Source of the DNA: an uncultured Candidatus Saccharibacteria bacterium
GTDB lineage: Bacteria > Patescibacteriota > Minisyncoccia > Phycocordibacterales > UBA12088
NCBI GenBank assembly: GCA_964459075.1
Contig: CAYWKE010000005.1
Span: forward strand, 1-34,652
Direction of reading: 5' to 3'
DNA length: 34,652 nt
A program made the position numbers and the translations under genes. This document shows, piece by piece, positions 14,273-34,652 of this stretch; position 1 is the stretch's first letter; every line of letters starts with the position of its first letter. Below the pieces are notes generated by a model. That model saw nothing but the letters and a program-made list of their open reading frames with translations. It searched no databases and had not been told where the DNA came from.

Positions 14273-16315
14273 ATGAGACACGTTCCATTTGGGCTAGTAG
14301 TATTATCGTTTTTGATCGCATCTACAGCACATGCAAATTACTACACACTGCCAATTGATGAGGTGGGTGATAGCGACATCATCTACTATTCATGGTTTGA
14401 CCATGATACCTCTGCGTCCCGTGCAAGATATGATGGTGCAACTATATTCGAGTACAATGATCACAAGGGAATCGACTTTGCAACTGTGTACGAAGGGAAA
14501 GACATCTTCGCTGCTGCCAGCGGCACTGTGCGTGCAGCAGGGTGGGAGAATCCCAGTGATTACGGCCAAGGGTACGGGTACCGCATCTACCTCTACCACG
14601 ACGACCAATCTCAACGAACCGTCTACGCCCACTTGGCAACGACATCAACCACAACAAGTGTATCGCTAAACGACGAGTTTGCTCAAGGCGAGGTGCTTGC
14701 ATCTAGTGGAGATACCGGTGTGTCATCAGGACCCCACCTCCACTTCGGCATCTACGACTGCGACTGCACGAGTTCGTCCGAGCAGCTCGACCCCTTCGGC
14801 TGGTGGCAGAGCACGCCCGATCCCTGGCCGCACAATGACAATTGGTACCTCTGGACGACCGATCCGCCTTCATTCTTGATGGCAAGCACGGTTGACTACG
14901 ACATCACCGAAGATCAAACGTGGCGAGGCAACATTCTGATCGAGGGATTGGTGACCATCGACACGGGAGTGACGGTGACGCTCACGCCAGGAACGGTGGT
15001 TAAGTTCAGGGATACAAATGCACGGCTTGCGGTAGAAGGCGTGCTCAACGCAGAGGGTGTGACTCAACGGCCGATCTACTTCACGTCCTACCACGATGAT
15101 ACCGTTGGTGGCGATACCAACGAGAATGGTGCGAGTACCTCACCTGCTGCAGGTGACTGGAAGTTCGTGTACCTATACCCAGGCGCAGATGTGGATCTCA
15201 CGCACACGTTCGTGCGCTACGGCGGCGGCGGGCAAGGTGATCTTGGCACGAACATCTACAACGCCGGAGGCTCTCTTACTTTGACACACGCCACCCTCAC
15301 CGACGCACACAACAACGCTGTCCACACGTTCACCGGCACCACGACCTGTCACGAGTGTGAGGTGTACGACAACTGGACTGGAATGGTGCAGTACGGCGGG
15401 TCGCTCACGATCGACGAATCGTACATCCATGATAACGGCTACCTGGGCTTCTTTGCCCGAGGTGATGGGTCTCTGCAGGTAACCGACACCCATTTTGAGG
15501 ACCACAACCTCTACGGTGCCGGATATGTTTCCTTTTGGAGTGGGTTGGACTTCACCCACTCAGGCAACACCTCGCAGAGCACCGGTGGCACGTTCACCTC
15601 AAATCTGCACGGCTTCCTAACTGCTGGCTACGTGAATGGGACGGTGACGTGGCAGAAGGACGGCATGCCCTACATCGTGTACCCCTACGACGTCGACACC
15701 CAGCTCTACGGAACGAGCGTTCCTGGAGGTTCGACCTTGACCATCGATCCGGGCGTGATCGTGAAGTTCGCCTCCTCAAGCTCGTTTCTCAACGCGAGCG
15801 GCACCCTGATTGCCGAGGGCACCTCGCTCAGTCCCATCTACTTCACCTCGATCAAGGATGACGTAGGAGGGGATACGAACGACGACGGTGCAAGTTCGGG
15901 AAGCCGGGGGGATTGGCTAGGTATTGTGATCGGGCCGTTCAGTAGTAGTGGCTCTGGCTCTTTCACTCATGCGATCGTTCGCTATGGGGGAGGGTATGAG
16001 GCGAGCTCGGGCGAGGACTACGCGCAGATCTGGTCGCAGAACAACAGCACGCTCGACATCGCCAGCTCGACCATCACGGAGAGTGGGTACGTCGGCGTGT
16101 GGCACGATGACAGCGGGGGTACGACGAATATTTCATCGAGCAACCTTACGAATGTTGACTTCTACTACGGCTTCTATAGCGACCAAAGCGCGACTTCAGA
16201 TGCTGAGGGGAACTACTGGGGTGCTTCAGATGGGCCTCAGCCTGGCGGAAGTGGCGTGTGGATCGGGGGCAATGTTGACGCGATTCCGTTTGAGACAAGC
16301 GAAGTGATGTGGTGA
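14273..16315 (+). CDS. Secreted M23 metallopeptidase fused to right-handed beta-helix repeats
   Basis: Signal peptide; M23 zinc motifs HKGIDF, YAHL and GPHLHF; two internal copies of PG..VKF...G.L.AEG...PIYFTS..DD..GGDTN..G...GDW. Confidence 0.82.
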   Translation: MRHVPFGLVVLSFLIASTAHANYYTLPIDEVGDSDIIYYSWFDHDTSASRARYDGATIFEYNDHKGIDFATVYEGKDIFAAASGTVRAAGWENPSDYGQGYGYRIYLYHDDQSQRTVYAHLATTSTTTSVSLNDEFAQGEVLASSGDTGVSSGPHLHFGIYDCDCTSSSEQLDPFGWWQSTPDPWPHNDNWYLWTTDPPSFLMASTVDYDITEDQTWRGNILIEGLVTIDTGVTVTLTPGTVVKFRDTNARLAVEGVLNAEGVTQRPIYFTSYHDDTVGGDTNENGASTSPAAGDWKFVYLYPGADVDLTHTFVRYGGGGQGDLGTNIYNAGGSLTLTHATLTDAHNNAVHTFTGTTTCHECEVYDNWTGMVQYGGSLTIDESYIHDNGYLGFFARGDGSLQVTDTHFEDHNLYGAGYVSFWSGLDFTHSGNTSQSTGGTFTSNLHGFLTAGYVNGTVTWQKDGMPYIVYPYDVDTQLYGTSVPGGSTLTIDPGVIVKFASSSSFLNASGTLIAEGTSLSPIYFTSIKDDVGGDTNDDGASSGSRGDWLGIVIGPFSSSGSGSFTHAIVRYGGGYEASSGEDYAQIWSQNNSTLDIASSTITESGYVGVWHDDSGGTTNISSSNLTNVDFYYGFYSDQSATSDAEGNYWGASDGPQPGGSGVWIGGNVDAIPFETSEVMW

Positions 16316-19112: not shown

Positions 19113-20012
19113 ATGGCCACCCTCTACACACACCAGAGCGAGAACATTCGCAAGACGTGGTTTCTCATGGCCGCGTTCTTCATCGTGGTCATTGGTATCG
19201 CGTGGGGGGTGAGCTACTATTACGATAACCAGATCATTCTGTGGATCGCGGTAGGGTTTGCGCTCATTATGAACGTGGGAAGCTATTGGTACTCCGACAA
19301 GTTGGTCATTCGCATGACCGGCGCACAACCTGCTGACCCCAACGAGTATCGCGAACTCCACCGTATTGTGGAGAACCTCTCCATCACCGCCGGGCTCCCC
19401 AAGCCGAAGGTCTACATTATGAACGACCCGGCACCGAATGCATTTGCGACCGGGCGTGACCCGGAGCACGCGGCCGTCGCGTTCACCACGGGTCTCCTGC
19501 GTATCCTCGATCGCTCAGAACTAGAGGGTGTGGCCGCGCACGAGCTGGCCCACATCGGCAACCGCGACATGCTGGTGGCGACGGTCGCGGTCGTGCTCGC
19601 AGGTTTTGTCGCCATCATCGCAGACATCTTTATGCGATCGTTGTGGTTCGGTGTAGGAGGGGGAGACCGAAACAAAGGTGGGGGACTGATCGTCATCATC
19701 GGTATCGTACTTGCCATCCTGGCACCACTTGCGGCGACGATGATTCAAATGGCCATCTCACGCAAGCGCGAGTACCTGGCGGATGCCTCTGGTGCACTCC
19801 TGACCCGCTACCCTGAAGGGCTCGCCTCGGCGCTTGAGAAGATATCGAGCGCGGGCCGACCCATGCAGCGCACAAGCCACGCGACCGCGCACCTCTTTAT
19901 CGCGAACCCGTTCGGCCACGAGCGTGGCCTCATGTCAAAGGTCAACACGCTTTTCATGACCCACCCGCCTGCCCACGAGCGCATCGCCATTCTGCGGGGG
20001 ATGCAGGGGTAG
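19113..20012 (+). CDS. htpX: Zinc metalloprotease HtpX (M48)
   Basis: PNAFATGR, ELEGVAAHELAH (HExxH), SRKREYLAD and THPP. Confidence 0.95.
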   Translation: MATLYTHQSENIRKTWFLMAAFFIVVIGIAWGVSYYYDNQIILWIAVGFALIMNVGSYWYSDKLVIRMTGAQPADPNEYRELHRIVENLSITAGLPKPKVYIMNDPAPNAFATGRDPEHAAVAFTTGLLRILDRSELEGVAAHELAHIGNRDMLVATVAVVLAGFVAIIADIFMRSLWFGVGGGDRNKGGGLIVIIGIVLAILAPLAATMIQMAISRKREYLADASGALLTRYPEGLASALEKISSAGRPMQRTSHATAHLFIANPFGHERGLMSKVNTLFMTHPPAHERIAILRGMQG

Positions 20013-20079
20013 GGTTGCGAGATGCACAAGAGTTGTATAGTCTCTCATCAGAGATGAACTACCAAGGGAGTCGGCGGCA

Positions 20080-20700
20080 GTGGAAGATGAGGATTTCGAA
20101 CACCTAAGTCAGCAACAGCTCCGAAAACTTGTTCGAAAACAACGGAGTCAGTTGCAGAAAGAGCAAGCACGAAGAAAGCGGGCGGAACATGAACGCGATC
20201 ACGATCTGCTGACGGGATGCCTGACCCGTCGAGGGTTTGATCGAAGGGCACAAAGGCGTATCCGTATCGAGCGGCAGCGCTCACGCTCGAGCGGCATCGT
20301 TTTCTTCGATGTCGACGATTTCAAGTTGATCAACGATCGGCTTGGACACGAGGCGGGAGATGACTTCCTGACCCTTCTCGGTCGACGCTTGCGAGAGGAC
20401 TTACAGGAGTGCGAACTCATCGGAAGGAAAGGGGGCGACGAGTTCTGGATCCTTCTGTCGACAGGGGATCGATCCTATGCGGACATCACGGTGTGTCGCA
20501 TCGACGCTGTTCTTGAGGGCATTCGGCGTGAGTTTGTCGTCCTCTACGGTGAGAAAGCCATGAGGGGCGTACGTCTCACGGTGTCCGCCGGGGTATGCGT
20601 CTCGCGAAAGTATTCGCTCAGCAAGATGTGCGCACTTGCCGACAAGCGAATGTACGAGAACAAGTACAACAAAAAGCGAGAAGTGGAGCGGGCCTCATAA
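20080..20700 (+). CDS. Diguanylate cyclase (coiled coil plus GGDEF)
   Basis: HDLLTG, FFDVDDFKLINDRLGHEAGD, GRKGGDEF, TVSAG and ADKRMY. Confidence 0.9.
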   Translation: MEDEDFEHLSQQQLRKLVRKQRSQLQKEQARRKRAEHERDHDLLTGCLTRRGFDRRAQRRIRIERQRSRSSGIVFFDVDDFKLINDRLGHEAGDDFLTLLGRRLREDLQECELIGRKGGDEFWILLSTGDRSYADITVCRIDAVLEGIRREFVVLYGEKAMRGVRLTVSAGVCVSRKYSLSKMCALADKRMYENKYNKKREVERAS

Positions 20701-20726
20701 GCCCGCTCCCACTCATTTTTGACCTG

Positions 20727-20735
20727 TGCTATAGT
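20727..20735 (+). promoter_or_regulatory. Extended -10 promoter upstream of the tRNA-Ser locus
   Basis: TGCTATAGT ending 14 nt before the split tRNA 5' end at 20750. Confidence 0.55.
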
Positions 20736-20855
20736 ACGCCTCACGAATTGGAGAGGTGCCAGAGTGGTCGAATGGGCTCGCCCAGCACCAAGAGAACGTT
20801 GTCGAACTGGAGGATCGGAAGTACTACGTCCCAAACTCAACGAAATATTGTACAC

Positions 20856-20894
20856 TTGGTGCTGGGTATACCTGGAACGTATACCCAGCACCAA
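20856..20894. repeat. 39-bp palindrome: 16-bp arms around CTGGAAC; degenerate copy at 21048-21085
   Basis: TTGGTGCTGGGTATAC-CTGGAAC-GTATACCCAGCACCAA. Confidence 0.9.
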
Positions 20895-20897
20895 AGC

Positions 20898-20984
20898 GGA
20901 GGGTTCGCATAGTGGTCTAGTGCGCTCGCCTGGAACGCGAGTTGGGGTTCACGCCCCTCAGGAGTTCGAATCTCCTACCCTCCG
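20898..20984 (+). tRNA. tRNA-Ser(GGA)
   Basis: Acceptor stem GGAGGGT/ACCCTCC-G, D arm GCA..TGC, anticodon arm CTCGC-CTGGAAC-GCGAG, long variable arm GGGG..CCCC, T arm AGGAG-TTCGAAT-CTCCT. No encoded CCA. Confidence 0.95.
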
Positions 20985-21098
20985 CTTTGGTGCTGTGGCG
21001 AGTAGGCCGGAAACGGTCTCGGGAGTTCGAATCTACCTCCCTCCGCATTGATGCTGGGTATACCTGGACGTACATCCAGCACCAACGATAGTTGGTGC

Positions 21099-21143
21099 GG
21101 AGGGCGAGTTTGGGGGTAACGCCCCTCAGGAGTTCGGATCCCC
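21099..21143 (+). pseudogene. Decayed partial copy of tRNA-Ser(GGA) (D arm and anticodon loop deleted)
   Basis: GGAGG-GCGAGTTTGGGGGTAACGCCCCTCAGGAGTTCGGATCCCC, compared with the intact GCGAGTTGGGGTTCACGCCCCTCAGGAGTTCGAATCTCC. Confidence 0.7.
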
Positions 21144-21170
21144 ACGGAAGCCCTGTGAGGGCTTCCGTGG
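21142..21170. repeat. Perfect hairpin, 13-bp arms
   Basis: CCACGGAAGCCCT-GTG-AGGGCTTCCGTGG. Confidence 0.85.
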
Positions 21171-21371
21171 AATTCAAGACCTTGCCAGCCTGTTTCGAGT
21201 CCCGAGGGGCAAAGTAGTAAGCGACACGGAGTACAGCAGGCGTACTGTTTGATCTCCAACTCTTCACACTATTGAGCTAGTTCAAGGTAGTATGTACCCA
21301 TTCCATCAGCGAGAACCAGGTTCGAGGTAGACGCAGTACCCGGTTACCGACGATCTGATGCATTACTTCGT

Positions 21372-21950
21372 ATGAGAAAAGCGCTGCTTGTAAACGGCCA
21401 CCCAGGAGTACAGAGTCTCTCATCCGCTGCAGCCGCACGCGTGAAGCTAGCACTCGAGCGTTCAGATTGCAGCGTCGATGAACTGGATGCAAGCGCGTTG
21501 CCGTTGGCTGGTCATATTATTAAAGAGGCCTATCCTGATGCGTTCAGTGAGATCAGTCGTACACTGAATGACTATGCTATCATCGTATGTATCACACCAG
21601 TATGGTGGTATGGTCCAACAGCGGTCATGAAGAATTTCATAGACTGTGCATTGCAGGCAAAGAGACAGTTTGTGTATACGAAGAAGTACCGTTTTCTGCA
21701 ACCTATTCCAGAAGGTCTCATGAACAGAGACACGCGCGTGATCGTTATTACCACAAGTGGAGGCCCTGGCTCATGGTATCGATGGGGGCTAATGCCAAAC
21801 TATGGTTGGAAGATTCTCCGTGACAGTTTCGCTCTGTGTGGGGTGGCAAAAAGAAACATCACAAATTACCACTTTGGACCTGCTCGTGAGGGGGTTGAAC
21901 AGACCAAGATCGATAGGTGGCTACATGAACTCGAGACACTATCGTTCTGA
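21372..21950 (+). CDS. NAD(P)H-dependent oxidoreductase, flavodoxin-like fold (Flavodoxin_2/KefF-MdaB type)
   Basis: LLVNGHP...S, ITPVWWYGPTAVMKNFID and VITTSGGP; A/T-richer than flanking core genes. Confidence 0.85.
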   Translation: MRKALLVNGHPGVQSLSSAAAARVKLALERSDCSVDELDASALPLAGHIIKEAYPDAFSEISRTLNDYAIIVCITPVWWYGPTAVMKNFIDCALQAKRQFVYTKKYRFLQPIPEGLMNRDTRVIVITTSGGPGSWYRWGLMPNYGWKILRDSFALCGVAKRNITNYHFGPAREGVEQTKIDRWLHELETLSF

Positions 21951-22153
21951 ACCAGGAATGGTGTTGTTGGTTCCACGCTGTGCTTGATACGTCTCGGTGC
22001 GCCCTCGCGACGACACGCAGAAGTGTAGTGTGCAAGGTACGTATCCTAGCCCGTAGCAGCGGGGTGTCAGAGTGATCGAAGTGACGAGCGATGAGAACAC
22101 GACGGAGCACCTACTGCTCTCGTGGATGATTACGCATCACACGCACTTCACCG

Positions 22154-22173
22154 TCATACGATATATCGTATGA
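22154..22173. repeat. Perfect 20-bp palindrome
   Basis: TCATACGATATATCGTATGA equals its own reverse complement. Confidence 0.85.
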
Positions 22174-22266
22174 AATCTGTAGGGTACTGAGATCTCAGCT
22201 TCTTCTGAGCTAACATCACCTCTTGAGCTACCACCTCGAAATTCTCGATTGATCTGATGAAGGAGA

Positions 22267-22650
22267 TCAACACCCCCTATTTTCAAGCTCAGCAATGACC
22301 TCGTCCGCGATCTCGCGGTAGTTCGCTGTTGATTTTACGTAGAAGAGCGAGGCACCTGCAGCGCGGGCGCGCGCAAGGGTGTCTTCGTCACCAAGATTCG
22401 TGAGCATGGTGATAAGAGCAGGGTGCTCGGGTGCCCCAGAAATGTACCGCTCCACAAACTCGATACCATCCCCATCGGGGAGCATGACGTCAGCAAAGAT
22501 CACATCGAAACGGGCCGACGTTAACGCTTGCTCTGCGCTCTGAATGGTTTCCGCGTGGGTCACCTGAAAATACTGCTTGAGGTGCTCCAAGGCGAGGCCG
22601 GCGATGAATGCATCGTCCTCGAGCAAGAGCGCTGTGTATCCGTGTTCCAT
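22267..22650 (-). CDS. Stand-alone response regulator receiver domain
   Basis: LLLEDD, phosphoacceptor in ADVMLPDGDG, MLTN and YVKS. Confidence 0.88.
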   Translation of the reverse strand: MEHGYTALLLEDDAFIAGLALEHLKQYFQVTHAETIQSAEQALTSARFDVIFADVMLPDGDGIEFVERYISGAPEHPALITMLTNLGDEDTLARARAAGASLFYVKSTANYREIADEVIAELENRGC

Positions 22651-34269: not shown

Positions 34270-34377
34270 GCCCCCTGTAGCTCAATGGAGTGAGAAAGCT
34301 TGGGAAGCTTTTTCACCGGTCCCGTCCGAGGGACTGTGGCGGTCTCCCGGAACCGTCGAAGAGTGGGTTCGGTTCAG
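34270..34377 (+). pseudogene. Hairpin-expanded degenerate tRNA-Arg copy
   Basis: GCCCCC(T)GTAGCTCAATGGA, TCCCGTCCGAGGGA and GAAGAG-TGGGTTCGGTTC match, in order, the acceptor/D, anticodon and variable/T segments of the adjacent tRNA. Confidence 0.6.
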
Positions 34378-34409
34378 GATCGAACTGTAGTACAGTGTGT
34401 GAGCTACCT

Positions 34410-34481
34410 GCCCCCGTAGCTCAATGGATAGAGCTATTCCGTCCTAAGGAAGAGATGTGGGTTCGATTCCTGCCGGGGGCA
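34410..34481 (+). tRNA. tRNA-Arg(CCT)
   Basis: Acceptor stem GCCCCCG/CGGGGGC-A, D arm GCTC..GAGC, anticodon arm TTCC-GTCCTAA-GGAA, T arm GTGGG-TTCGATT-CCTGC. Confidence 0.93.
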
Positions 34482-34652
34482 CAAATTGATACTTCTTCGG
34501 AATTAAGGCAAGCAGACCGCCGCCGCGAAGCGGCGACGGAAGGCAGAAAACCTCGTCGCTTCGCGACGAAATGGCTGGGCGAGGAAACGGAAAAGTAGGC
34601 GGATTTGTTACGAACCGCATGGTTCGTTCCGATTTTTTGGACGAAGGAGGCA

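What the first reader, a model, noticed from the sequence alone, without database searches (positions are those of the whole stretch)
20750..21045. A tRNA nested inside a tRNA: intact tRNA-Ser(GGA) sits in the anticodon arm of a second, doubly interrupted tRNA-Ser
Seen, in order after a promoter: outer 5' half (20750-20781, ending CTCGC); insert A (20782-20871); CTGGAAC (20872-20878); insert B (20879-20997); outer 3' half (GCGAG, variable arm, T arm, acceptor; 20998-21045). Deleting A and B restores a full tRNA-Ser(GGA) cloverleaf with two mismatches. Its acceptor, D and variable arms differ from the inner tRNA, so this is not a simple duplication. Each insert is closed by the same inverted repeat. 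In A it is CCCAGCACCAAG...CTTGGTGCTGGG around 62 nt. In B it is CAGCACCAAAGC...GCTTTGGTGCTG, which extends the inner tRNA's acceptor stem by 12 perfect bp. The motif occurs seven times, in both orientations, in 20781-21101. Inference: either a palindromic mini-element that targets anticodon arms and carries a replacement tRNA, or an unusual precursor processed into one or two tRNAs. I know no described system with this layout.
Basis: partly seen in the sequence, partly recalled or inferred. Interest (0 to 1): 0.9.

Follow-up and report, generated by a model that had tools for sequence, protein, structure and literature searches.

The report
Working tRNA gene nested inside dead one
One working serine tRNA gene sits where the anticodon loop of an older, now broken serine tRNA gene used to be, and relatives show the same layout with a small DNA-cutting enzyme gene inside, which points to a selfish element that breaks tRNA genes and brings its own replacement.

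Summary
ARAGORN and Rfam find only the inner tRNA-Ser(GGA) at 20898-20985. Removing 20782-20871 and 20879-20997 in silico gives a second tRNA-Ser(GGA) cloverleaf with two mismatches. Independent contigs from two samples carry the same layout.

It is not a one-off. The nested layout recurs in relatives of the same order, in two or three layers. Half of the outer copies tested (3 of 6) no longer fold. The same genome has two nested tRNA-Pro loci.

The 14-bp leader/trailer helix around the inner tRNA is kept by compensatory changes (10 of 14 pairs). The genome has RNase III but no archaeal-type splicing endonuclease or RtcB.

In relatives, a small GIY-YIG endonuclease gene lies inside such loci. 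18 of 30 such genes are followed at once by a tRNA gene, and 10 of those 18 have a copy of that tRNA's 5' part just upstream of the ORF.

Best reading: a DNA-level replacement. A self-contained tRNA cassette, probably an ORF-less relic of a homing-endonuclease element, was inserted into the anticodon arm of an older gene whose halves are now relics. Splicing of the outer tRNA is unlikely. No RNA data were available, and no endonuclease trace remains in the window.

The parts
20727..20736 (+). extended -10-like word upstream of the outer tRNA (possible promoter of the whole unit)
   Evidence: Read by eye. Similar words precede the tRNA-Ser genes of relatives. The strict consensus scan found no promoter.
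20750..20781 (+). outer tRNA-Ser(GGA) 5' half (acceptor, D arm, 5' strand of anticodon stem); read as a relic
   Evidence: ARAGORN on the spliced sequence.
20781..20866 (+). hairpin A: 12-bp inverted repeat around a 62-nt spacer, with no ORF and no family match
   Evidence: I5; fold of the insert alone; no GIY-YIG trace.
20856..20894 (+). perfect 39-nt palindrome (16-nt arms) whose 7-nt centre (20872-20878) equals the anticodon loop of the tRNA; its right arm holds a -10-like word 12 nt before the inner tRNA
   Evidence: I4. In relatives the centre changes together with the tRNA's own loop (read by eye).
20884..20897 (+). leader of the inner tRNA, 5' strand of the extended acceptor helix
   Evidence: I2; covariation.
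20898..20984 (+). inner, intact tRNA-Ser(GGA), the only GGA serine tRNA gene found in the genome
20984..20997 (+). trailer of the inner tRNA, 3' strand of the extended helix
   Evidence: I2.
20998..21045 (+). outer tRNA-Ser(GGA) 3' half (anticodon stem 3' strand, variable arm, T arm, acceptor); read as a relic
   Evidence: D1/D2 repeat families.
21048..21085 (+). second, degenerate copy of the palindrome (the centre has lost one base)
   Evidence: D4, D5, I6.
21100..21143 (+). third tRNA-Ser fragment: first 6 nt of the acceptor fused to anticodon-stem 3' strand, variable arm and part of the T arm
   Evidence: D1: 21110-21143, 88% to 20942-20975.
21142..21170 (+). 13-bp perfect hairpin closing the locus; a similar hairpin follows the two nested tRNA-Pro loci
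   Evidence: I7.

Best explanation
This is a DNA-level gene replacement, not a spliced precursor. An older tRNA-Ser(GGA) gene (20750-20781 plus 20998-21045) was broken in its anticodon arm by a roughly 216-nt self-contained cassette. The cassette holds a hairpin, a palindrome that carries a copy of the 7-nt anticodon-loop sequence, and a complete tRNA-Ser(GGA) flanked by a leader and a complementary trailer. The inner tRNA is the working gene. The outer halves are relics that are decaying.

The leader and trailer extend the acceptor stem by 12-14 bp. This gives a double-stranded handle from which RNase III, then RNase P and 3' trimming, can free the tRNA from a longer transcript. That processing step is inferred.

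The cassette belongs to a family that recurs in this order of small-genome bacteria. In some relatives the insert also carries a small GIY-YIG endonuclease gene. The likely mechanism is therefore homing. The nuclease cuts an intact tRNA gene in a loop, and repair copies in the nuclease gene together with a whole or partial replacement tRNA. Repeated rounds give nested, Russian-doll loci. The window's copy would be a derivative that has lost the ORF. That last step is inferred, not shown.
For: Shown:
- Only the inner tRNA is called in the native DNA, and it is the only Ser(GGA) gene among the 34 tRNAs of the genome.
- The layout stands in contigs of two samples.
- The same nested layout occurs in G007, G037, G047 and G279. 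It also occurs with a Ser(TGA) pair in L115.
- Among the 30 best model hits from 151 genomes, 24 have 9 or more leader/trailer pairs, 11 have an upstream 5' copy, and 7 have both upstream and downstream copies. Four of the 30 were training rows.
- Outer copies decay. Spliced in silico, 3 of 6 still fold (window, L017, L021 middle layer) and 3 do not (L013, L037 middle layer, L115).
- Insertion into a once-intact gene: G297 has an uninterrupted tRNA 95-98% identical to both halves of G037's outer gene.
- The leader/trailer helix is kept by compensatory change. Of 14 pairs, 10 changed on both sides; 91.8% of cells pair, against 44-54% when slid; 0 of 500 shuffles reach this (7 sequences).
- RNase III is present.
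- In G000 the automatic count flagged stems of 10 or more bp in 2 of 34 tRNAs (Ser-GGA, Pro-GGG). A third (Pro-TGG) was seen by eye. All three are nested loci.
- GIY-YIG ORFs (Pfam 62 and 44.7 bits) lie between the outer 5' half and the inner tRNA in G051 and G064.
- 53 of 101 genomes hold such genes, with up to 6 copies.
- 18 of the 30 best are followed by a tRNA gene on the same strand within -3 to +127 nt.
- 10 of those 18 have a 94-100% identical copy of the tRNA's 5' part just upstream of the ORF.

Precedent: T4 SegB, a GIY-YIG homing endonuclease in a tRNA cluster whose site includes the T-loop motif (PMC2330249, abstract read).
Against: - The window's cassette holds no ORF, and a profile of five GIY-YIG proteins finds no trace in 20700-21250.
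- G000 gave no match to the tRNA-linked nuclease at E<=1e-8. Its one small GIY-YIG gene (33% identical) is not beside a tRNA.
- No nuclease activity or target site has been shown for any of these proteins.
- The window's layout differs from the clean single insertions of relatives. Here the loop appears to sit between two inserts, and I have no step-by-step account of how the palindrome with the loop copy arose.
- Only 4 of the 18 nuclease-linked tRNAs have a leader/trailer stem of 11 or more pairs, so stem and nuclease are not tightly coupled.
- The outer tRNA of the window still folds, with only two mismatches, so a function cannot be excluded from sequence alone.
- G297's intact gene is not at a syntenic site, so it is not a true empty allele.
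- No RNA data were available.
Confidence: 0.6

Rival explanations
1. Processed precursor. The whole unit is one transcript. The inner tRNA is cut out, the two inserts are removed, and the three outer pieces are ligated, so the locus yields two tRNA-Ser(GGA) molecules.
For: The spliced outer folds as a tRNA with two mismatches. Two other outers (L017, L021 middle layer) also fold after removal of the insert. The predicted fold places the whole insert on a long stem that continues the outer anticodon stem. The 7-nt centre of the palindrome matches the tRNA's own loop, in the window and in relatives.
Against: No EndA and no RtcB were found in a 96%-complete genome. Rfam finds no intron or ribozyme family. 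By my reading of the junctions there is no bulge-helix-bulge motif. 3 of 6 outers no longer fold. Outer copies elsewhere are cut down to 12-36 nt, or carry hairpins in their D or T loops, which fits decay and not use. Releasing the inner tRNA would cut the outer into pieces, and no bacterial ligation pathway for such pieces is known to me (recalled).
Confidence: 0.07
2. Local rearrangement without a mobile element. Tandem tRNA-Ser copies were reshaped by deletions, by template-switch extension of hairpins and by gene conversion. The repeats are by-products of replication errors at palindromes.
For: The locus is a chain of alternating inverted repeats around three centres. Inner and outer copies are often 100% identical over 14-72 nt in relatives, as duplication or conversion would give. 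In G000, 15 of 34 tRNAs have exact direct or inverted copies of their 3' end within 450 nt downstream. No enzyme gene lies at the window's locus.
Against: In the window, and in G037, the inner and outer tRNAs are of different sequence types (81.6% identical in the window). In L017 and L115 the two outer halves abut exactly when the insert is removed, which two independent deletions would rarely give. Cassette flanks are alike between genomes that carry different tRNA bodies. The link of GIY-YIG genes to tRNA genes, 18 of 30, is far above my rough chance estimate of about 1%.
Confidence: 0.2
3. Remnant of an integrase-type integrative element. A plasmid or phage integrated at the anticodon loop of the tRNA gene, as many do, and was later deleted down to its own tRNA and attachment-site repeats.
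For: Anticodon loops are classic integration sites (recalled). The palindrome with a 7-nt centre equal to the loop looks like a recombinase core site. A close pair of contigs diverges completely right at the 3' end of an outer tRNA.
Against: There is no duplicated loop at the two junctions, as a tyrosine recombinase would leave. There is no integrase gene in the neighbourhood, and only two tyrosine recombinase genes in the genome, on other contigs. Nothing like the insert flanks was found in the phage, plasmid or viral contig collections.
Confidence: 0.08
4. Assembly artefact that joins two tRNA-Ser loci or two strains.
For: tRNA genes are repeats that break assemblies. In run X2 the contig breaks at 20753-20776.
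Against: One contig in X1 spans the whole stretch, and one in X2 spans 20753-21500, each with 0 differences. The same layout occurs in other genomes and in two metagenome contigs.
Confidence: 0.02

Closest known systems
Phage T4 SegB and other free-standing GIY-YIG homing endonucleases ('intronless homing')
   Same: In relatives, a small GIY-YIG gene sits among or inside tRNA genes. The expected outcome is spread of the nuclease gene together with adjacent tRNA sequence. SegB's site includes a conserved tRNA loop motif (PMC2330249, abstract read).
   Different: These are cellular genomes of tiny bacteria, not phages. The nuclease gene lies inside a split tRNA gene, with a duplicated or replacement tRNA. 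Loci are nested in layers. The window's copy has no ORF. No activity has been shown.
Archaeal disrupted tRNA genes (multiple introns, split and permuted tRNAs)
   Same: A tRNA coding sequence is interrupted in or beside the anticodon loop, sometimes at several places, and inverted repeats close the inserts.
   Different: No bulge-helix-bulge motif was seen, and no EndA or RtcB was found. The organism is bacterial by gene content. The insert holds a complete second tRNA. Outer copies decay.
Integrative elements and islands that target tRNA genes and carry the displaced part
   Same: The target gene is broken yet an intact tRNA remains, because the incoming DNA brings the missing part. Partial tRNA copies mark the borders.
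   Different: The insert is only about 160-230 nt, or about 400 nt with the ORF. There is no integrase and no duplicated crossover segment at the junctions. A whole tRNA or its 5' part is supplied, rather than the usual 3' part.
Processing stems of rRNA operons and RNase III-excised intervening sequences
   Same: Leader and trailer pair to form a long helix at the base of the mature RNA. The helix is kept by compensatory changes, and RNase III is present.
   Different: The helix surrounds a single tRNA, and cleavage has not been shown.
'Fractured genes' with a free-standing endonuclease gene between two gene halves (PMC2677866; search listing and start of abstract only)
   Same: A homing endonuclease gene sits between the two parts of a broken host gene.
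   Different: There, the halves are rejoined at protein level by split inteins. Here, the host gene is an RNA gene and function is kept by a second copy.

Membership tests
Archaeal/eukaryal-type tRNA intron (endonuclease plus ligase splicing) | tRNA splicing endonuclease (EndA family) encoded | tested here: not met
   PF01974: 0 matches in G000 (96% complete); the control rings in 4 archaea.
Archaeal/eukaryal-type tRNA intron (endonuclease plus ligase splicing) | RtcB-type RNA ligase encoded | tested here: not met
   PF01139: 0 matches in G000.
Archaeal/eukaryal-type tRNA intron (endonuclease plus ligase splicing) | Bulge-helix-bulge motif at both exon-intron junctions | tested here: inconclusive
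   By eye on the junctions of the window and L017, the 4-bp central helix with two 3-nt bulges cannot be drawn. No dedicated BHB search tool was run.
Group I intron in a tRNA anticodon loop | Catalytic core recognisable (Rfam) and size of about 200 nt or more | tested here: not met
   Rfam at E<=1 finds only tRNA in 19500-22500. The inserts are 90 and 119 nt.
Free-standing GIY-YIG homing endonuclease element | GIY-YIG ORF at the locus | tested here: not met
   The window has no ORF and no profile match in 20700-21250. The feature is met in relatives: G051 and G064 (Pfam 62 and 44.7 bits), and G037 and G058.
Free-standing GIY-YIG homing endonuclease element | Non-random linkage of the nuclease gene to its target gene family, with several copies per genome | tested here: met
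   18 of 30 best loci have a tRNA gene within -3 to +127 nt on the same strand. 10 of those 18 have a 5' tRNA fragment upstream of the ORF. There are up to 6 copies per genome, and 53 of 101 genomes have a match. This was tested in relatives, not in G000.
Free-standing GIY-YIG homing endonuclease element | Site-specific cleavage of the ORF-less allele and biased inheritance | not testable with these tools
   Needs protein and crosses, or population data.
IS200/IS605-type miniature element (hairpin ends, Y1 transposase) | Y1 transposase in the genome, and element ends like those of the resident IS | tested here: not met
   Y1_Tnp is present in 2 copies, but its flanks share no cassette motifs. 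Y1_Tnp is found in 4 of 5 genomes with nested loci and in 3 of 5 without. No TnpB was found.
IS200/IS605-type miniature element (hairpin ends, Y1 transposase) | Many copies of the same element in one genome | tested here: not met
   The exact 10-mer of the repeat occurs at 4 places at the locus and 4 elsewhere, against 5 for the control.
Tyrosine-integrase integrative element at a tRNA anticodon loop | Integrase gene nearby and duplicated crossover segment at both junctions | tested here: not met
   The neighbours are GGDEF and flavodoxin-like genes. The genome has two PF00589 genes, on other contigs. The junctions show no duplicated loop.
RNase III processing stem | Leader-trailer helix conserved by covariation, and RNase III encoded | tested here: met
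   10 of 14 pairs changed on both sides; PF14622, 134.8 bits. Cleavage itself was not tested.

The most novel reading that the evidence does not exclude
Small-genome (candidate-phyla-type) bacteria host a family of selfish elements that home into the D or anticodon loops of tRNA genes. Each element is a roughly 90-aa GIY-YIG endonuclease gene plus a whole or partial replacement tRNA, sometimes wrapped in its own processing stem. Each invasion kills the resident gene and installs a new one, which can be invaded in turn. tRNA genes therefore become Russian dolls, and tRNA sequences are exchanged between lineages. The window holds a fossil of this cycle. The exact inverted and direct copies of tRNA 3' ends that follow about half of this genome's tRNA genes would be scars, or working parts, of the same process.
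Probability: 0.4. Interest if true: 0.85.

Novelty: new variant of a known kind. Interest (0 to 1): 0.72.

Why it matters
tRNA genes are among the most conserved genes and are usually thought of as passive landing pads for integrating elements. This locus and its relatives suggest an element that destroys and replaces the tRNA gene itself, over and over, in bacteria with very small genomes and single-copy tRNAs. If that is right, it has four consequences.
- It gives a route for horizontal replacement of tRNA genes.
- It explains odd tRNA fragments that confuse annotation of these genomes.
- It offers a set of small natural nucleases that may recognise tRNA-gene loops.
- It shows a bacterial way to keep an RNA gene working after invasion without any splicing.

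It also gives a directly testable case: nuclease, target and product are all defined by sequence.

Tried and rejected
- **RNA evidence.** No RNA holder is listed for the stretch, so expression and splicing could not be tested.
- **Pattern with 1 mismatch for the palindrome centre, 401 genomes.** It gave 36 hits, about as many as the reversed control. Only the exact hits (G000, G047, G279) lay beside a tRNA-Ser.
- **Metagenome scan for the relatives' palindrome.** It gave 2 contigs, both from lineages already seen. Viral contigs gave none.
- **Y1 transposase idea.** Rejected. TnpB is absent. An integrase is unlikely.
- **Rfam on ten other tRNA loci of G000.** It found tRNAs and sub-threshold noise only.
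- **Phage and plasmid collections.** Only the tRNA body matched, in 5 plasmid records.
- **Single-protein search of viral contigs with the nuclease.** No relative was found.
- **A GIY-YIG-like 'IGST' word that I saw by eye in one frame of the 62-nt spacer.** The profile does not support it (no locus frame among the top 15 hits, and control frames score higher).
- **Consensus promoter scan.** It found 0 sites.
- **Alignment A1.** It misplaced a 3-nt insertion of L037, so that row was dropped and 7 of 8 sequences were used.
- It failed because one reference (L028) had stops in frame. I repeated it without that protein: only a weak sub-threshold match to a group I intron endonuclease model.
- **Literature.** Searches listed no paper on nested tRNA genes or on tRNA-linked GIY-YIG genes in these bacteria. 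I saw only listings and abstract starts, except for PMC2330249, where I saw the outline and abstract. Supplements were not consulted.
- **Not solved.** I could not work out how the 39-nt palindrome with the loop copy arose. I also could not work out what the 3'-end copy modules do.
Full report
**What is there**

The window is contig C5 of an 893-kb genome in 57 contigs, 96% complete. The neighbouring genes are bacterial: a GGDEF gene at 20080-20700, LemA, M23, M48 and M28 peptidases, and a flavodoxin-like gene at 21372-21950.

- outer 5' half, 20750-20781
- 90-nt insert A
- a 7-nt loop sequence
- 119-nt insert B, holding a complete tRNA-Ser(GGA)
- outer 3' half, 20998-21045

ARAGORN and Rfam see only the inner tRNA, also with introns allowed. 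After in-silico removal of both inserts ARAGORN calls a second tRNA-Ser(GGA). It has one A.C pair in the acceptor stem and one G.A pair in the T stem.

The repeats are as described. I add four things:
- Positions 20856-20894 form a perfect 39-nt palindrome with the loop sequence at its centre.
- A degenerate second copy lies at 21048-21085.
- A third tRNA-Ser fragment lies at 21100-21143.
- A 13-bp hairpin at 21142-21170 closes the locus.

Outer and inner tRNAs are 81.6% identical. The inner is the closer to the intact genes of family relatives, at up to 87.5% against up to 83.9% for the outer.

**Assembly**

Contigs built by another assembler carry the layout without a difference: the whole 20400-21500 in run X1, and 20753-21500 in run X2. 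Both samples may be the source of the genome, so this tests the assembler rather than giving independent biology. The recurrence in other genomes is the independent support.

**Recurrence**

A DNA search in 61 relatives matched the tRNA body in 48. In three of them the match ran on into the flanks.

Reading those loci, plus one found by pattern, shows two insert types:
- In G037 (L017), in the inner layer of G279 (L037) and around the middle layer of G047 (L021), a single insert of about 160-170 nt lies inside the anticodon loop just after the wobble base. It consists of a hairpin, a leader, a complete tRNA and a trailer.
- In the window, in G007 (L013), in the inner layer of G047 and in the middle layer of G279, the insert has the window's form: hairpin, then a palindrome or near-palindrome holding the loop sequence, then leader, tRNA and trailer.

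G047 and G279 have three layers.

A record outside this sample (L115) has the first type in a tRNA-Ser(TGA). There the cut is one base further along the loop but after the same three letters, so the site looks sequence-defined rather than position-defined.

By eye, 10 of 19 tRNA-Ser(GGA) loci of relatives carry partial copies of the tRNA in their flanks, and 9 carry none.

**Not only serine**

In G000 itself two tRNA-Pro genes (on C7 and C29) have the same build: an upstream 5' half ending in the anticodon loop, then a leader, an intact tRNA and a complementary trailer of 15-16 nt, then further fragments with hairpins in their T loops. The automatic count flagged leader/trailer stems of 10 or more bp in 2 of 34 tRNAs (Ser-GGA, Pro-GGG). 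The third (Pro-TGG) I saw by eye, because ARAGORN's ends were offset.

The window's other tRNA, Arg(CCT) at 34410-34482, has a copy of its first roughly 20 nt about 140 nt upstream.

**Relic or precursor?**

Spliced in silico, 3 of 6 outer genes still fold (window, L017, L021 middle layer) and 3 do not (L013, L037 middle layer, L115). Elsewhere the outer copies are reduced to 12-36 nt or carry extra hairpins.

The genome has no EndA and no RtcB, and Rfam finds no intron or ribozyme family. I could not draw a bulge-helix-bulge motif at the junctions. Cutting out the inner tRNA would sever the outer one.

I therefore read the outer halves as pseudogene pieces and the inner tRNA as the working gene. 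It is the only Ser(GGA) gene among the 34 tRNAs found. No RNA run was listed, so this remains an inference.

**Insertion, not duplication**

G297, in the same family as G037, has an uninterrupted tRNA-Ser(GGA) that is 95-98% identical to the two halves of G037's outer gene, and the halves abut exactly. Its flanks are not syntenic, so it is an intact homologue and not an empty allele.

G037's inner tRNA is of a different sequence type. Cassette flanks are alike between genomes that carry different tRNA bodies.

Two near-identical contigs (L021, L197) differ by three clustered substitutions in the outer 3' half and become unrelated right after it. This marks a recombination border at the tRNA.

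**The leader/trailer helix**

In an alignment of 7 cassette tRNAs (8 were collected; L037 was dropped for misalignment), the 14 pairs that extend the acceptor stem are 91.8% paired. Ten of the 14 show changes on both sides. The figure is 44-54% paired when the partner is slid by 1-3 columns, and 0 of 500 shuffles reach the observed values. G.U pairs occur on the tRNA strand.

A model built from this alignment found full-length matches widely in 151 genomes of the order. Of the 30 best loci:
- 24 have 9 or more such pairs with at most one mismatch (4 of these 24 were training rows)
- 11 have an upstream copy of the 5' part
- 7 have copies on both sides

RNase III is encoded. In relatives the hairpins pair each with its own partner. 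Only in the window does the minimum-energy fold prefer pairing the first and last arms, which puts the whole insert on a stem that continues the outer anticodon stem.

**The likely driver**

In G051 (L222) and G064 (L228) the space between the outer 5' half and the inner tRNA holds an ORF of about 85-105 aa with a GIY-YIG domain (Pfam 62 and 44.7 bits). The same kind of ORF lies just upstream of the cassette tRNA in G058 and of the outer tRNA in G037 (6 of 52 scanned loci, which is 4 distinct genomes).

Searching 101 genomes of the order with the G051 protein found matches at E<=1e-8 in 53 of them. There are up to 6 copies per genome, and some have in-frame stops.

Of the 30 best loci, 18 have a tRNA gene on the same strand starting 3 nt before to 127 nt after the end of the match. 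These are Ser, Tyr, Ala, Gln, Lys, Glu and Asn genes. My rough expectation for such adjacency by chance is about 1%.

Of these 18, 10 carry a 94-100% identical copy of the tRNA's first 12-36 nt just upstream of the ORF. The layout is therefore 5' fragment, nuclease gene, intact tRNA, with the break in the D loop or the anticodon loop.

This is what a homing endonuclease gene that targets tRNA genes and carries the displaced part would leave. T4 SegB is a precedent: a GIY-YIG homing endonuclease in a tRNA cluster, whose 27-bp site includes the T-loop motif, and which spreads itself and the neighbouring tRNA genes (PMC2330249, abstract).

**What is missing for the window**

G000 gave no match to that protein. 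Its one small GIY-YIG gene, 33% identical, lies on C10 away from any tRNA. A profile of five such proteins finds nothing in 20700-21250.

The window's cassette is thus at best an ORF-less derivative. Only 4 of the 18 nuclease-linked tRNAs have long leader/trailer stems. I have no step-by-step account of the 39-nt palindrome. Its 7-nt centre changes with the tRNA's own loop between the window and the relatives, so it is related to the loop and is not a chance match. Its right arm has a -10-like word at the usual distance from the inner tRNA; that is my reading, and the scan did not support it.

**Other leads tested and dropped**

Y1 transposases, TnpB, integrases, and phage, plasmid or viral carriage of the cassette; details are under Tried and rejected.

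**Verdict**

My odds for the parts of the reading are as follows.

| Claim | Probability |
|---|---|
| DNA-level insertion of a tRNA-bearing cassette into an older tRNA gene, leaving relic halves | about 0.8 |
| The cassette descends from a GIY-YIG homing element | about 0.45 |
| The leader/trailer helix is a processing stem | about 0.6 |
| The outer tRNA is spliced | under 0.1 |

I found no description of nested tRNA genes or of tRNA-linked GIY-YIG genes in these bacteria in six literature searches. I file it as a new variant of a known kind: free-standing homing endonuclease elements, and tRNA-targeting elements that carry the displaced part.

Noticed in passing
G000 contigs, e.g. C11:25427-25661 (His), C25:1867-2341 (Gly-TCC), C7:17939-18213 (Ala), C2:28057-28344 (Ser-GCT): About half of the genome's tRNA genes are followed by a module of fixed build. 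It runs: a hairpin of about 46 nt; an exact inverted copy (18-20 nt) of the tRNA's T-loop, T-stem and acceptor 3' part; a core of 60-110 nt; then an exact direct copy (16-21 nt) of the tRNA 3' end. 12 of 34 tRNAs have a direct copy of 16 nt or more, 6 of 34 an inverted copy of 18 nt or more, and 15 of 34 either. The two copies close a fold with two inner hairpins that show compensatory changes between the Ala and Gly modules. There is no Rfam match. The same build is seen in relatives' Ser loci.
   Followed up: partly
window 34270-34482: tRNA-Arg(CCT) at 34410-34482 has a copy of its first roughly 20 nt (with one extra base) about 140 nt upstream, followed by a hairpin and T-loop-like scraps. 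This is a second relic-bearing tRNA locus in the same window.
   Followed up: partly
G000 C7:18453-18690 and C29:5900-6200 (minus strand): Two tRNA-Pro genes (GGG and TGG) are nested like the serine gene. An upstream 5' half ends in the anticodon loop. The leader and trailer extend the acceptor stem by 15-16 bp. Downstream 3' fragments have small hairpins inserted in their T loops, and one of those hairpins carries the same repeat motif as the window's locus.
   Followed up: partly
G000 C11:10560-11260: An IS200-like Y1 transposase gene (125.9 bits) is flanked by several GC-rich hairpins with a shared tail. It lies 420 nt from tRNA-Ser(TGA). A second copy sits at the end of C30. No link to the tRNA cassettes was found.
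   Followed up: yes
L021 versus L197 (metagenome contig): The two contigs are identical over the roughly 880 aligned nt upstream apart from four scattered differences about 400 nt upstream of the nested locus, which is itself identical up to the outer 3' half. They then differ by three substitutions clustered in the outer 3' half, two of them compensatory in the variable arm, and become unrelated immediately after the tRNA end. This marks a recombination border at the tRNA gene.
   Followed up: no
L017 about 1080-1412 (G037): Upstream of the split outer tRNA lies a GIY-YIG ORF whose last codons run into the tRNA. Before that ORF is an older 5' tRNA fragment with a GC-rich hairpin in its D loop. 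Similar D-loop hairpins occur in L013, L022 and L028.
   Followed up: partly
window 14273-16315: A 680-aa ORF combines an M23 peptidase domain with a right-handed beta-helix region. It is ordinary and is noted only for annotation.
   Followed up: no
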